64,000 bases of DNA from Escherichia coli (GTDB lineage: Bacteria; Pseudomonadota; Gammaproteobacteria; Enterobacterales; Enterobacteriaceae). The stretch is from the NCBI RefSeq assembly GCF_030013595.1, contig NZ_CP122768.1. One strand, 5' to 3'. How positions within the stretch are numbered: the stretch's first letter is position 1; each line of letters opens with the position of its first letter. Below, in pieces: positions 15,001-18,000 of the stretch. A program made the position numbers.

Positions 15001-18000
15001 GACATGAAAAAGCTGGGGTATGAGATGAAACACTTCCGGCGCTGGCTGTACAAGCTGGAAAGCGACGGCGTAATCGCTATTGACGGTGATTATGTGCGCC
15101 CACTGTAAAAAGTGAGGAGCAAAAGTGAGGATGGCGGGTAATTTAACAAAAAATCAACGCCACTCCTCACTTTCTCACCTGTATATAGGTCAAAAAGTGA
15201 GGAGTTAAAAACACATTGCAAAACAACAGATTACAACAATAAAGAAAACGACTGAGGAGCAGAACAAGAATAATAAAAAGTGAGGAACAAAAGTGAGGAA
15301 TGGTGAGTTAATAGAAATGAGGTAATAAAAATAACAGGTAGGTTAAAAAACACACCATGCAAGATATTAACTAAAACTTAACTATTTACCTCACTTTTGC
15401 GTATATATAAGGATTAAAAAGTGAGTACTTAAAAATACATTTAAAATCATATTGTTATTAACTTCATAAATTTTCACTGTGCAGCAGGTGAGGAATTAAA
15501 AAATCAGGAATGTTAAAAATGAAAACAGAATGTTGTGTCAGTGCCGTTGGGCAACGTAGCAACCAGTAAAAACGATGGGGCAAAGCATGACTAAGCTGAC
15601 CATTAACAGAAAACCGAAAGGCATTTACGGCACGCCGCAGAAAACGACGCAGGCGGCGCAGGAGCAGGATAAAACCACATCGGCGCATAAAGTGATGCCC
15701 GGTAACCAGAAAGCGCAGCAGAAGCCCACAGGGGCGACACCGTGGCGGCATATGACCAAACGCCAGCGCAAAAACCGCAGGCGCGTTAACCGCCTCACTG
15801 AGTTGTGGCCTGAATTATTCAGCCGGGAAGCACCGAAGCCGCTTAAGGTGGGGATATTCGACGACCTGATGCAGGATCTCGCCGTCAGGGGGCTGGCATT
15901 CGGTCCAGGGGCATTGCGTGCGACGCTGGCATCTTATGCGCAGTGTCCGCGCTATTACCGCGCCTTAATGGCTGGTGGGGTACGCTACGACCTGAAAGGC
16001 CAGCCGTGCGGCGAGGTGACACCACAGGAACAACAGGACGCCGAAACGCGGCTGGTGGCGCTGAATGAGAAGCGCAAACGTCAGCGCCGGGCAGCAAAGG
16101 AGAAAACAGGCGCATGATTCACGACAGCAAAGCGGAAGCACTGGAAGCGCGTGGTCTGTACCGGAGAGCGGCGGCGCGGTGGGCTGAGGTCATCATGCTG
16201 GCGAATGATGACAAGGCACGGGAACAGGCGGCAAAACGTCGCGCGGAATGTATCCGCAAGGCAGCACGCCCACCAGCAAGGCAGGATAATTTCGGGGAAA
16301 TGCGCGAAACCATCAGCCGGGCACATGCCGGGATGGGATTACATCAGCCCAATGGTAAGGCATTCAGGAAATACCCTGGATCGAAAAATTGCAGTCAGTG
16401 ACAGAAGCCGGGATTTTTCCCGGCTTTTTTGTGCCAGTAAAAAGCCCGCAGCCAGAAGTGTTGCGGGCTTTGTTTTTCAGGTGATTGAAGTCAATGGGAA
16501 GAACGCGATCATCATGCGTTATCGCTTCATAAATTGCAACGATGTAGATCGTTATTTCAGTTTGTGCAATCATAATCATTGTTTTGTTCAGGAGATATGA
16601 CTATGAGAAAAGCCAGCGTGAAACCCGTTTTACTCGCTCGTGATCAGATTGAAGCATTACAGCGCATCCAGGACGAGGAACGCCGCAATTCTCCGCTGGG
16701 GATTGCTCCGAGCATTCATGAGGTCGCCCGGCGTTTAATGCAGCGGGCGCTTTATCCCGTAGAACGTCCGGCCTGATGGTCGTGATTTTTTGGTGAAAAA
16801 AGAGAGGTGGTAAAAATGCCAGCAAGCAAAGAAGATTTGCGATTAAAACTGATGGAGGTGGTTAACGCTCTGTCAGAGTCGCAGGGCAGCACTCCGCAGG
16901 AGATTATCGAAATTCTGAATGCGATCCCCGCACAGGATTTCACAAAAGCGGACGAGGATGACGCGAATAAAAACATCGTCGCGTCAGTCGAAGATGAATC
17001 CTCACTGGCAGAAGCCCAGGCTAAAGCGGATTCCGCATACAGCAATATGGGCCGTCGCGCTCCAGCCCCGTTTGCTGGTGAAAAGTCGATGGATTACCGC
17101 AAGCGTGCATTAATTGGTGCACAGAAGCTGGCTAAAAAATTCAGTGATGTGGATATTCGTTCCGTTTCAGATTCTGCAACGCTGGCGGTGCTGGAAGATC
17201 AGATTTACCAGGCTGCAAAAGACAGTGTTCAGTGGGCTGTGGAAAATACGCCGGGCTATTTGCGTAAAACCGTAAGAATGGATGAAGCCGGACGGCGGAT
17301 TACTGAATATCAGGGGGATCCGAATAACTGGCTTAGTGCTTTCAAAATCCCTCCCCGTCGCCTGGTTAAAATTAACGTTGCAAGCCTCGCGGGGGCATGA
17401 AAAACGTGCTGATTTCAGCCCTGCCGGATTTGGTGGGGCTTATTGCTTATAACCGGGGGACATTATGCTTTTAACAGAAATTGAGGCGGCAAAGCAGATT
17501 CGGGACGGTCAGCTACCGTCGCCTTATCAGTTTTCCAACATGTGGCTGATTAACCTGCGTATCACAGGAACCGGAATGGCCTATCGCGCCGAAGAAAAAG
17601 AATTTGTCTGGCGTTCACCGCAAACTTATCTCAATCCGCAGTTCCTGGAACGTTGCGCCGGAGTACCCGTCATTATCGACCATCCCGAAAGCAAAACCCT
17701 TGAAGACGTGGGCGAACGGTCGCGCATTATTGGCACCGTTATGTTGCCGTATATTCGCGGTGACGAGGTGTGGGGCGTATGCCGGATTTACGGGCAGGAA
17801 ATCATCGATTACATCCAGAAAGCACGGGGGGAGGTATCCACCAGCCCGTCGGTTGTGTTTTGTGGTGCGTCCGGTGGGGCAGAAGTTCCTGATGTAATGG
17901 GCGAGGACAATTTTTTCATTGAGGGTACGCCATTTCTTATCGATCACGTTGCGCTCGTACCGTTGGGCGTATGGGATAAGGGCGGGAAACCATCAGGTGT

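What the first reader, a model, noticed from the sequence alone, without database searches (positions are those of the whole stretch)
15575..16401. FinO/ProQ-domain RNA chaperone translationally coupled to a PerC-like regulator
The 180-aa product has a basic tail followed by a core that closely resembles the FinO/ProQ RNA-binding domain (PLKVGIFDDL, RYDLKGQPCGEV). Its stop overlaps the start (ATGA) of a PerC-family gene. I do not recall an operon pairing an island-borne RNA chaperone with a PerC-type virulence regulator; it suggests a post-transcriptional layer acting on island or host transcripts.
Basis: partly seen in the sequence, partly recalled or inferred. Interest (0 to 1): 0.65.

Follow-up and report, generated by a model that had tools for sequence, protein, structure and literature searches.

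The report
Satellite FinO-like protein coupled to PerC
A small RNA-binding protein of the FinO/ProQ family and a PerC-type regulator are made from two overlapping genes in a 14-kb phage satellite of E. coli; the pair is real, common in enteric bacteria and routinely annotated, but nobody seems to have studied it, and it is sometimes fused into one protein.

Summary
The ORF at 15575-16117 carries a FinO/ProQ domain: Pfam E=1.5e-23, an AlphaFold model that matches only FinO-domain structures, and conserved RNA-pocket residues. Its conserved start is more likely 15587, giving 176 aa. Its stop overlaps (ATGA) the start of a full-length PerC gene at 16114-16401.

The setting is a 14.06-kb phage-inducible chromosomal island (PICI) at tRNA-Gly, next to the ETT2 secretion cluster. 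The pair is not rare. RefSeq already names both genes, and 238 of 5,426 complete E. coli genomes carry the pair at DNA level. Diverged versions occur in Salmonella, Citrobacter, Serratia, Rahnella and Mixta.

Three things argue for functional linkage:
- the 4-nt overlap is conserved;
- one lineage has the order reversed but still overlapping;
- Mixta calida carries a natural FinO-PerC fusion.

I found no paper that mentions the FinO-like gene in satellites. Function is unknown. A link to type III secretion is unsupported.

I also found a conserved, covarying antisense RNA of about 80 nt opposite the leader of the satellite's early operon. It is a plausible FinO-type ligand, but it also occurs in satellites that lack the gene.

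Verdict: a real, under-studied variant of a known kind, of moderate interest.

The parts
15587..16117 (+). Gene for a 176-aa FinO/ProQ-domain protein (19.9 kDa, pI 10.6). The longest ORF starts at 15575 (180 aa). It has a disordered basic N-terminus, a FinO domain and a basic C-terminal helix.
   Evidence: Pfam PF04352 E=1.5e-23. PDB sequence hits: ProQ NTD 5nb9 at 6e-12, FinO 1dvo at 2e-10, plus NMB1681 and RocC. AF2 pLDDT exceeds 90 over residues ~58-175, and the top 26 Foldseek PDB hits are all FinO domains. The start is inferred from homologues.
16114..16401 (+). Gene for a 95-aa PerC-family protein (PchE-like)
   Evidence: Pfam PF06069 E=2.4e-32, full length. It is 91% identical to a protein named PchE over 57% of its length, and 64% identical to a PchABC-family protein.
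16097..16117 (+). Coupling junction: AAGGAG (16097-16102) inside the FinO-like ORF, and the ATGA stop/start overlap (16114-16117)
   Evidence: Sequence. A -4 overlap is conserved in most related loci.
16403..16481 (+). Two tandem intrinsic-terminator-like hairpins directly after perC (16403-16432 and 16441-16481)
   Evidence: Terminator scan. RNAfold of the downstream 140 nt gives -55 kcal/mol. The same double hairpin occurs in L079 and L081.
15106..15574 (.). AT-rich (32.7% GC) region upstream of the FinO-like gene with AAAAAGTGAGGA iteron-like repeats. It is probably the origin of a lost RepA-type replicon, and it must hold any internal promoter.
   Evidence: Direct repeats D1 and D4. GC content. 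Similarity to the region just after a RepA helicase gene in L102. No consensus sigma-70 promoter was found.
11700..11782 (-). Candidate structured RNA of about 80 nt. It has two hairpins, the second a GC-rich terminator with a U-rich tail. It is antisense to the SD and ATG of the icd-like first gene of the rightward operon, and it lies in the leader of the leftward YlcI/YnfO gene. It is a possible ligand of the FinO-like protein.
   Evidence: Weak Rfam SymR hit. Covariation: 98.2% of cells paired against 90.7% in shuffles, and 35 cells with changes on both sides against 11.4, with 0 of 500 shuffles as high. The CM R1 scores 95.6 bits here and hits 70 related loci.
11646..11674 (+). Promoter-like site (TTGACA-17-TAAAGT) that could drive the operon icd-like ... 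primase ... FinO-like-PerC
   Evidence: Promoter scan, 10 of 12 matches. No strong plus-strand terminator lies between it and 16403: only short 5-8-bp hairpin matches at 13888-13988, inside the primase ORF.
7026..7044 (.). attL: the 19-bp direct repeat at the 3' end of tRNA-Gly(CCC) (6970-7043)
21083..21101 (.). attR: an exact copy of the 19-bp repeat. The island spans 7026-21101 (14.06 kb).
12636..14384 (+). Satellite primase (582 aa), followed by GGTAGA iterons at 14390-14700 (probable ori)
   Evidence: phrog_864 at 1e-143. Iterons seen in the sequence.
19911..20219 (+). Second, stand-alone PerC paralogue near attR
   Evidence: jackhmmer and PHROG phrog_994 at 1.6e-25. Weak ANR-family hit.

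Best explanation
**What it is (shown).** This is a two-gene, overlapping regulatory module of an enterobacterial phage satellite, a Gram-negative PICI integrated at tRNA-Gly. Gene 1 encodes a small basic FinO-domain protein. It belongs to a distinct subfamily that is neither FinO nor ProQ, and it keeps the RNA 3'-end/terminator-binding pocket. Gene 2 encodes a PerC/PchE-type small regulator. The pair sits after the replication genes and origin and before the packaging genes. It is followed by a double terminator.

**How it most likely works (inferred).** The two proteins are made together from one mRNA. The FinO-like protein binds terminator-type hairpins with 3' tails on satellite (or helper or host) RNAs. 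By analogy with FinO/FinP-traJ and FopA/Inc-repZ, it would stabilise an antisense RNA and speed its pairing with a target leader. The best candidate ligand is the conserved antisense RNA of about 80 nt opposite the RBS of the first gene of the same early operon. That would give negative feedback on satellite replication and early genes. PerC would act at the level of transcription; Pch proteins are known to relieve H-NS silencing. The recurrent overlap, the order swap and the natural fusion indicate that the two act in one pathway.

**How sure.** Identity and linkage: about 0.9. The general mode (an RNA-binding partner plus a transcriptional partner regulating the satellite life cycle): about 0.5. 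The specific antisense-RNA target: about 0.2.
For: **Domain and fold**
- establish the domains and the fold.
- Tyr and Arg equivalent to ProQ Y70 and R80 are invariant in 61 diverse homologues. The R58 and G37 equivalents are also kept. Their essential role in ProQ is documented in PMC10168233.

**PICI anatomy**
- att repeats, tRNA, int, alpA, ant, primase, iterons and a TerS-like gene are all present.

**Pair conservation**
- 14 of 27 sequence clusters (90% identity) of the FinO-like protein have PerC adjacent. The overlap is usually -4.
- The order is reversed, with a 17-nt overlap, in L089-L092.
- A 250-aa natural fusion occurs on 11 contigs from three sources.
- Diverged pairs at 40-52% identity sit after primase or SSB in Salmonella-type, Serratia and unassigned metagenomic (unidentified-host) elements.

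**Antisense RNA**
-.

**Precedents from the literature**
- MGE-borne FinO-domain proteins act with cis-antisense RNAs (PMC9977716, PMC7491321).
- Pch acts as an anti-H-NS factor (PMC4764244).
- pchE is co-transcribed with its upstream ORFs in a related island (PMC7369912).
Against: - No RNA-binding or expression data exist for this subfamily.
- The antisense RNA is also present in PICIs that lack the FinO-like gene: 3 of 4 sampled.
- The CM does not find the antisense RNA in four loci that carry the pair: L002, L004, L006 and L007. The partnership is therefore not obligate.
- The same FinO-like sequence cluster is found with several antisense-RNA variants.
- The R62 and K54 equivalents of ProQ are not conserved.
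- The AF2 model of the fusion gives pTM 0.56, so it gives no support for a fixed FinO-PerC interface.
- About half of the FinO-like clusters have another partner or none: an 82-aa protein in capsid-forming PICIs, a TraR-like zinc finger, or nothing in large YagK/YfjJ islands.
- No promoter could be located upstream.
Confidence: 0.5

Rival explanations
1. Host-directed cargo. The pair is an accessory 'moron' of the satellite that reprograms host gene expression for the benefit of the lysogen. PerC/PchE would alter flagella, curli or LEE through H-NS-bound promoters. The FinO-like protein would tap into or compete with the host ProQ sRNA network. It would have no role in the satellite's own cycle.
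For: - PerC homologues in PICIs are described as virulence-related. One (EcCIMP1_025) represses LEE1 when over-expressed (PMC11773190, PMC6092414).
- PchE over-expression changes flagellar and curli genes (PMC7369912).
- The nearest named relative here is PchE.
- A second PerC copy sits at the island end, where accessory genes usually lie.
- Host ProQ binds many island and prophage RNAs (PMC9977716).
Against: - The pair keeps a fixed internal position between the replication and packaging modules, and often follows SSB directly.
- It occurs in Serratia, Rahnella and Mixta, genera not known to me to carry LEE; LEE presence in these genomes was not tested here.
- PICI PerC homologues from CFT073 and EDL933 had no effect on LEE1 fusions (PMC11773190, citing Porter 2005).
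- pchE deletion had little phenotype (PMC7369912).
Confidence: 0.25
2. Replication accessory factor. The FinO-like protein acts directly in satellite DNA replication, for example on primer RNA 3' ends or R-loops at the origin together with SSB and primase. It would not be a post-transcriptional regulator. PerC would simply be a neighbouring gene.
For: - The gene lies immediately after the ori iterons, or immediately after an SSB gene, in several lineages.
- FopA and PcnR, the closest functional precedents, control plasmid replication (PMC9977716).
- The FinO pocket recognises an RNA helix with a free 3' end (PMC9674577, PMC9977716).
Against: - Known FinO-domain proteins affect replication only through antisense RNA control of rep mRNA, not at the fork (PMC9977716).
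- Many PICIs with the same primase, SSB and ori lack the gene.
- This reading does not explain the conserved overlap, the order swap or the fusion with PerC.
Confidence: 0.1
3. Helper-directed interference. The pair acts on helper-phage transcripts and promoters, for example by stabilising or blocking phage late mRNAs and activating or silencing late promoters, to redirect the helper toward satellite packaging.
For: - The position is just upstream of the satellite's capsid/packaging module.
- PerC-like PHROG families are annotated as phage transcriptional activators.
- In one locus the overlapping partner is a TraR-like zinc finger. From my own knowledge, this is a family that binds RNA polymerase.
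- A satellite sRNA acting on phage transcripts has a precedent in Vibrio PLE (10.1101/2022.04.08.487710, abstract only).
Against: No helper is known for this element. No close homologue exists in 50,697 phage genomes, where the best identity is 39%.
Confidence: 0.1
4. Decaying remnant. The genes are leftovers with no current function.
For: Frameshifted copies exist: FinO-like in L017, PerC in L104 and a decayed PerC in L007. The same island carries a rep-gene remnant.
Against: - Both ORFs in the window are intact and full length.
- The pocket residues are invariant across 61 homologues down to about 26% identity.
- The overlap is conserved in dozens of loci and several genera.
Confidence: 0.05

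Closest known systems
[quoted passage not shown]
   Same: A small basic protein made of a positively charged N-terminal extension plus a FinO domain, with no ProQ-type C-terminal domain. It is encoded by a mobile element next to its replication functions. It is expected to bind a structured cis-antisense RNA (PMC7491321, PMC9977716).
   Different: This protein is on an integrated phage satellite, not a plasmid. True plasmid homologues are at most about 42% identical, and only over the FinO domain. It is coupled or fused to PerC, which FopA is not. Its target RNA is unknown. I could not obtain the FopA sequence for a direct comparison.
FinO / FinP-traJ fertility inhibition of F-like plasmids
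   Same: It has the FinO fold (1dvo rmsd 1.9 A over 102 columns). The gene lies at the distal end of a long operon whose leader and RBS are opposed by a short antisense RNA with two hairpins and a terminator. In F, finO is distal in the tra region and FinP opposes the traJ leader (own knowledge and PMC9977716).
   Different: It scores 64.7 bits against the NCBIfam FinO model, whose cut-off is 136. It lacks the FinO N-terminal helix. No conjugation genes are present. The antisense RNA also occurs without the protein.
ProQ (chromosomal global RNA chaperone)
   Same: The FinO domain keeps the G37, R58, Y70 and R80 equivalents (PMC10168233).
   Different: It scores 57.9 bits against a cut-off of 127. 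It has no linker or Tudor-like C-terminal domain. The R62 and K54 equivalents are lost. It is borne on an island.
PerC / PchA-E regulators of EPEC and EHEC
   Same: A full-length PF06069 match. The nearest named relative is PchE. PerC homologues are a recognised feature of Gram-negative PICIs (PMC6092414, PMC11773190).
   Different: It is not on pEAF or a lambdoid prophage. It is translationally coupled to a FinO-domain gene, and that coupling is not described in the papers I could search.
Gram-negative PICIs (EcCICFT073, EcCIEDL933/OI-51, EcCIMP1)
   Same: int, alpA, ant, the DUF4222 (RgdR-type) gene, primase plus iterons, a small packaging module, a size of about 14 kb and att repeats (PMC6092414, PMC3378721).
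   Different: The sampled O157:H7 PICI with the same leader element (L101) has neither gene, and two other sampled PICIs have SSB-PerC (L102) or SSB alone (L103), without the FinO-like gene. For OI-51 itself the published gene list names SSB and PchE and does not mention ProQ/FinO (PMC3378721). This element has primase-[rep remnant]-FinO-like-PerC.

Membership tests
FinO/ProQ-domain proteins (PF04352) | Significant match to the family profile | tested here: met
   E=1.5e-23, model positions 5-108 of 109. phmmer hits to the ProQ NTD, FinO, NMB1681 and RocC chains.
FinO/ProQ-domain proteins (PF04352) | FinO fold (helical bowl plus beta-hairpin) | tested here: met
   AF2 pLDDT exceeds 90 over residues ~58-175, with helices and a two-strand hairpin. 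The top 26 Foldseek PDB hits are all FinO domains, with TM (target) up to 0.84.
FinO/ProQ-domain proteins (PF04352) | Conserved RNA-binding pocket (ProQ G37, R58, Y70, R80) | tested here: met
   The equivalents are G93, R115, Y127 and R137 in 180-aa numbering. Tyr and Arg are invariant in 61 homologues. The R62 and K54 equivalents are not conserved.
FinO/ProQ-domain proteins (PF04352) | Small (14-27 kDa), basic protein | tested here: met
   19.9 kDa, pI 10.6. The criterion comes from PMC9977716.
FinO/ProQ-domain proteins (PF04352) | Binds an RNA hairpin with a 3' single-stranded tail, with chaperone activity | not testable with these tools
   Needs EMSA or CLIP.
FinO proper (NF010317) | Score above the curated cut-off; F-like plasmid context with FinP/traJ | tested here: not met
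   64.7 bits against a cut-off of 136. The context is a chromosomal satellite.
ProQ proper (NF003434) | Score above the curated cut-off; C-terminal Tudor-like domain | tested here: not met
   57.9 bits against a cut-off of 127. The protein ends 20 residues after the FinO domain.
FopA-like subfamily | Basic N-terminal extension plus FinO domain without a CTD; sequence clustering with FopA | tested here: inconclusive
   The architecture matches the description in PMC7491321. Plasmid homologues are at most about 42% identical over the domain only.
PerC family (PF06069) | Full-length profile match | tested here: met
   E=2.4e-32, model positions 1-89 of 90.
PerC family (PF06069) | Activates LEE1/ler or relieves H-NS silencing | not testable with these tools
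   Literature only (PMC4764244, PMC11773190). The closest named relative, PchE, is in the non-activating class.
Gram-negative PICI (phage satellite) | Integrase at one end, flanking att direct repeats, size of about 10-15 kb | tested here: met
   int at 7169-8422; a 19-bp repeat at 7026 and 21083; 14.06 kb.
Gram-negative PICI (phage satellite) | alpA regulator and a primase/rep gene followed by an iteron origin | tested here: met
   alpA at 9576-9773; primase at 12636-14384; GGTAGA iterons at 14390-14700.
Gram-negative PICI (phage satellite) | No tail or lysis genes; only a small packaging/capsid-remodelling set | tested here: met
   Only protease-like phrog_6216 and a TerS-like HTH protein were found. 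The RefSeq annotation of an island with a 99.5%-identical ProQ-PerC segment (tested over window 15300-16800 only) and matching gene order, integrated at a different chromosomal site, lists no tail or lysis genes.
Gram-negative PICI (phage satellite) | Induction and transfer by a helper phage | not testable with these tools
   Experimental.
FinOP-type antisense control | Short cis-antisense RNA with a terminator hairpin opposite the RBS of a key gene | tested here: met
   Structure and covariation. An extended -10 and a U-rich tail are visible in the sequence. The RNA itself has not been observed.
FinOP-type antisense control | The antisense RNA depends on, or co-occurs with, the FinO-domain protein | tested here: inconclusive
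   The RNA is present in 70 fetched loci that carry the gene. It is also present in 3 of 4 sampled PICIs without the gene. It is absent from 4 loci that carry the gene.

The most novel reading that the evidence does not exclude
The FinO-domain protein and PerC form a single two-part (sometimes fused) regulator specific to phage satellites. The FinO part would capture the terminator of the conserved antisense RNA, or of another satellite or helper transcript. The PerC part would couple that RNA to transcriptional de-silencing or activation. This would give a FinOP-like 'fertility inhibition' switch for satellite replication and induction. It would also imply that the long-unclear mechanism of PerC/Pch regulators can involve an RNA partner.
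Probability: 0.15. Interest if true: 0.75.

Novelty: new variant of a known kind. Interest (0 to 1): 0.5.

Why it matters
FinO-domain proteins on plasmids are classic regulators of plasmid spread and copy number. A satellite-specific subfamily would extend that logic to phage satellites, which move virulence and defence genes among enteric bacteria.

The recurrent coupling to PerC, and the occasional fusion with it, gives a concrete and testable handle on two open questions. One is what PerC-family proteins do outside LEE-positive pathogens. The other is how Gram-negative PICIs control their early operon. The conserved antisense RNA at the operon leader is an immediate candidate for experiments.

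If the pair turns out to be simple cargo, the finding is ordinary.

Tried and rejected
1. **Species-representative genomes.** The peptide-pattern scan gave only two loci, E. albertii and Serratia oryzae. I used IMG/VR and exact-protein look-ups instead.
2. **The 61-sequence alignment** was too diverse for a pattern scan.
3. **Direct comparison with FopA.** pCol1B9 is not in the plasmid collection. The plasmid hit I fetched was an unrelated 125-aa IncF protein.
4. **AF2 of the natural fusion** with a concatenated-pair alignment, to look for a fixed FinO-PerC interface. pTM was 0.56, and the tool returns no PAE, so it gives no support either way. The AFDB50 search with that model returned only FinO-domain proteins and no further fusions.
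5. **Promoter upstream of the FinO-like gene.** The consensus scan found none. The upstream region is not conserved between lineages beyond about 35 nt at the RBS.
6. **Exclusive co-occurrence of the antisense RNA with the FinO-like gene.** Rejected.
7. **Co-variation between antisense-RNA variant and FinO-like variant.** None is apparent; one protein cluster is found with several RNA types.
8. **Rfam.** Only int-alpA passes its threshold inside the island. The SymR hit is sub-threshold.
9. **PADLOC.** No defence-system match for the pair or its neighbours.
10. **The 82-aa partner in capsid-forming PICIs as a hidden PerC.** Not detected by the iterated profile.
11. **Literature.** No paper in the library links ProQ/FinO with PerC or with E. 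coli PICIs.
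Full report
**1. The observation**

The window holds an ORF at 15575-16117 (+, 180 aa) and an ORF at 16114-16401 (+, 95 aa). The sequence shows ...GGC GCA TGA with the ATG of the second ORF at 16114-16116. Stop and start therefore overlap as ATGA. An AAGGAG lies 11 nt upstream of that ATG, inside the first ORF.

The domain assignments are secure:
- Pfam gives ProQ/FinO (PF04352) at E=1.5e-23 over residues 68-172 for the first protein.
- Pfam gives PerC (PF06069) at E=2.4e-32 over the whole second protein.
- A sequence search of the PDB finds the ProQ N-terminal domain (5nb9, 6e-12), FinO (1dvo, 2e-10), NMB1681 and RocC.

One correction concerns the start. Diverged homologues and RefSeq begin at the second ATG (15587, MTKLTINRK...), which has a GGGG 7-10 nt upstream. 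The product is more likely 176 aa.

**2. Structure and binding pocket**

I built an AlphaFold2 model on a 61-sequence alignment. It has pLDDT above 90 for residues ~58-175 and a low-confidence N-terminal ~55 residues. Foldseek against the PDB returns only FinO-domain structures in its top 26 hits: NMB1681, FinO at 1.9 A over 102 columns, and RocC with TM up to 0.84.

The pocket residues line up as follows (ProQ numbering against the 180-aa numbering used here):

| ProQ residue | Role in ProQ | Equivalent here | Conserved? |
|---|---|---|---|
| Y70 | essential for RNA binding | Y127 | yes; invariant in 61 homologues |
| R80 | essential for RNA binding | R137 | yes; invariant in 61 homologues |
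| R58 | essential for RNA binding | R115 | yes |
| G37 | needed for pocket shape (G37A deleterious) | G93 | yes |
| R62 | contributes | Ala | no |
| K54 | contributes | Pro | no |

The essential roles in ProQ come from PMC10168233.

In the alignment of 61 diverse homologues the only invariant residues are one Pro plus the Tyr and Arg that match ProQ Y70 and R80.

The protein is 19.9 kDa with pI 10.6. Its N-terminal 61 residues have pI 11.2. This fits the family description of small, basic proteins (PMC9977716).

NCBIfam scores are far below the curated cut-offs for FinO (64.7 against 136) and for ProQ (57.9 against 127). It is therefore a separate subfamily and not an orthologue of either.

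True plasmid homologues are at most about 42% identical, and only over the domain. Phage homologues are at most 39% identical.

**3. The setting is a phage satellite**

- A 19-bp exact direct repeat at 7026-7044 (the 3' end of tRNA-Gly-CCC) and at 21083-21101 delimits a 14.06-kb element.
- In order, it encodes: an integrase, an int-alpA RNA motif, a 267-aa unknown protein, AlpA, an Ant-type antirepressor, a leftward YlcI/YnfO gene, then rightward an Icd-like gene, a DUF4222 protein and a primase.
- After the primase come GGTAGA iterons, a C-terminal remnant of a RepA-type helicase with its own GTGAGGA iterons, the FinO-like-PerC pair and two terminators.
- Then follow a small RHH-like ORF, two protease-like ORFs, a TerS-like HTH protein and a second PerC paralogue.

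This is the anatomy of Gram-negative PICIs (PMC6092414). The ETT2 type III secretion cluster lies just outside attR.

**4. How common is the pair?**

- RefSeq annotates 'ProQ/FINO family protein | PerC family transcriptional regulator' at matching loci.
- A sensitive DNA search finds either gene in 1,903 of 5,426 complete E. coli genomes. It finds at least 80% of the pair in 238 genomes.
- IMG/VR yielded 79 loci.
- Across the loci fetched up to (window included), the FinO-like proteins fall into 27 clusters at 90% identity. Fourteen of these have PerC adjacent, nearly always with the same -4 overlap.
- Relatives at only 40-52% identity keep the arrangement after primase or SSB, with overlaps of 4, 8 or 17 nt. 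They come from Salmonella, Citrobacter, Enterobacter, Serratia, Rahnella and unidentified hosts.
- In L089-L092 the order is PerC then FinO-like, still overlapping by 17 nt.

In Mixta calida the two are fused into one 250-aa protein with both Pfam domains. That exact protein is found on 11 contigs from ENA, NCBI and Logan. Comparison with a related locus shows how the fusion arose. A deletion of about 14 nt removed the stop/start overlap gATGATGATAAGTGA.

The linkage is not universal:
- Capsid-forming PICIs have an unrelated 82-aa partner.
- One locus has a TraR-like zinc-finger partner.
- A large set of YagK/YfjJ-type islands carry a solitary, often frameshifted, copy.
- Conversely, PerC often occurs without the FinO-like gene. 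The sampled PICI L102 has SSB-PerC; for OI-51 the published gene list names SSB and PchE and does not mention ProQ/FinO (PMC3378721).

**5. Literature**

PerC homologues are a recognised PICI feature (PMC6092414, PMC11773190). Pch proteins relieve H-NS silencing (PMC4764244). pchE is co-transcribed with two upstream ORFs (ECs1586, ECs1587) in O157 Sakai (PMC7369912); a separate paper places pchE on OI-51 and lists a putative SSB gene there (PMC3378721).

MGE-borne FinO-domain proteins (FinO, FopA, PcnR) act with cis-antisense RNAs on conjugation or replication (PMC9977716, PMC7491321).

I found no paper mentioning a FinO/ProQ gene in E. coli PICIs, or its pairing with PerC. The only hit combining ProQ/FinO with satellites is a passing remark on Vibrio episomal satellites (PMC13230959).

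**6. A candidate RNA partner**

A sub-threshold SymR hit led me to a minus-strand element at 11700-11782. Its features are:
- an extended -10 (TGgTATGAT);
- then two hairpins, the second GC-rich and followed by a U-rich tail;
- complementarity to the SD (GAGG) and ATG of the Icd-like first gene of the rightward operon.

Forty distinct versions show obvious compensatory changes. On a 26-sequence alignment:
- 98.2% of cells pair, against 90.7% in shuffles and 33-44% when the partners are slid;
- 35 cells carry changes on both sides, against 11.4 in shuffles;
- 0 of 500 shuffles reach the observed value.

RNAalifold finds the same hairpins. Frequent G-U pairs point to the minus strand.

A covariance model finds the element in 70 fetched loci. 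It is always on that strand, 3.4-5.5 kb upstream of the FinO-like gene, including in Serratia and Mixta. It occurs in 1,314 of 5,426 E. coli genomes.

No strong plus-strand terminator lies between the promoter-like site at 11646-11674 and the double terminator after perC; the scan lists only short 5-8-bp hairpin matches at 13888-13988 inside the primase ORF. The pair may therefore be the distal end of the very operon this RNA opposes. That layout recalls finO and FinP/traJ.

There are caveats:
- Three of four sampled PICIs with the RNA lack the FinO-like gene.
- Four loci with the pair lack the RNA.
- The RNA lies in the leader of the YlcI/YnfO gene, so it may equally be an attenuated leader.

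The partnership is a hypothesis, not a finding.

**7. Is there a physical complex?**

An AF2 model of the natural fusion, built with concatenated pairs, gives a confident FinO domain. The PerC part is helical at pLDDT 73-89. The pTM is only 0.56. This gives no evidence for a fixed interface.

**8. Verdict**

The domain and coupling interpretation is supported. The claim of an unusual pairing is not, in the sense that the pair is widespread and routinely annotated. The T3SS link has no support.

What remains interesting is threefold:
- an unstudied, satellite-associated FinO-domain subfamily;
- its genetic linkage to PerC, shown by the conserved overlap, the order swap and the fusion;
- a conserved antisense RNA that offers a testable FinOP-like model.

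I rate it a new variant of a known kind, with interest 0.5.

Noticed in passing
window 11700-11782 (-): A conserved structured RNA of about 80 nt. It has an extended -10, two hairpins and a terminator-like 3' end. It is antisense to the SD and ATG of the Icd-like gene and lies in the leader of the YlcI/YnfO gene. Covariation is strong. It occurs in 1,314 of 5,426 E. coli genomes and in Serratia and Mixta satellites. No Rfam family passes its threshold (the SymR hit is only 30.8 bits against a gathering score of 61).
   Followed up: yes
L097 8001-8753 (also L098-L100); Mixta calida: A natural in-frame fusion of the FinO-like protein and PerC (250 aa, WP_316551961.1) on 11 contigs. It arose by a deletion of about 14 nt that removed the overlapping stop/start seen in L007.
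   Followed up: yes
L089-L092 (e.g. L090 5610-6594): The gene order is reversed, PerC first and then the FinO-like gene, still overlapping by 17 nt.
   Followed up: partly
window 19911-20219 (+): A second, stand-alone PerC paralogue (102 aa) near attR, with a weak sub-threshold hit to the ANR anti-activator family.
   Followed up: partly
window 14390-15530: A mosaic replication region. The primase is followed by GGTAGA iterons. Then comes a 115-aa C-terminal remnant of a RepA-type helicase (14761-15108), followed by a second set of AAAAAGTGAGGA iterons that resemble the region after an intact RepA gene in L102.
   Followed up: partly
window 11600-11800: Face-to-face promoter-like sites: rightward TTGACA-17-TAAAGT at 11646-11674, and a leftward extended -10 at 11793-11788. 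Their transcripts would overlap by about 100 nt. Inverted repeats (GTAAGAC...GTCTTAC) sit over the rightward promoter, so this looks like a genetic switch.
   Followed up: no
window 12349-12639 (+): A DUF4222 protein in the position of RgdR, the OI-51 regulator of T3S and motility. It has HGD where RgdR has its RGD motif.
   Followed up: partly
window 8467-8534 (+): An Rfam int-alpA RNA motif (45.5 bits, above its threshold) just after the integrase gene.
   Followed up: no
window 8545-9348 (+): A 267-aa ORF between int and alpA with no match in PHROGs, NCBIfam or PADLOC. This is a typical slot for satellite cargo.
   Followed up: partly
window 9363-9486: Short tandem direct repeats (2 x 33 nt and 2 x 17 nt) just upstream of alpA.
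   Followed up: no
L015-L017 and about 1,500 E. coli genomes: A related solitary ProQ/FinO-family gene in large YagK/YfjJ-type islands, without PerC and often frameshifted.
   Followed up: partly
L012 3592-4803; L095 6001-7211: Two tandem FinO-like genes. In L012 they are followed, with an 11-nt overlap, by a TraR/DksA-like C4 zinc-finger ORF.
   Followed up: no
window 21292-42000 and 60970-61254: The ETT2 type III secretion cluster (SctV, SctC, SctN) with an IS2/IS3 insertion lies directly outside attR. The OmrA and OmrB sRNAs are at 60970-61254.
   Followed up: partly
window 16579-16776 (+); L003 ~8505-8678 (57-aa ORF starting 39 nt after the FinO-like stop at 8465; exact coordinates not printed): A small conserved ORF (65 aa here, 57 aa in Serratia oryzae) follows the pair. 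In Serratia oryzae it follows the FinO-like gene directly, with no PerC between them.
   Followed up: partly
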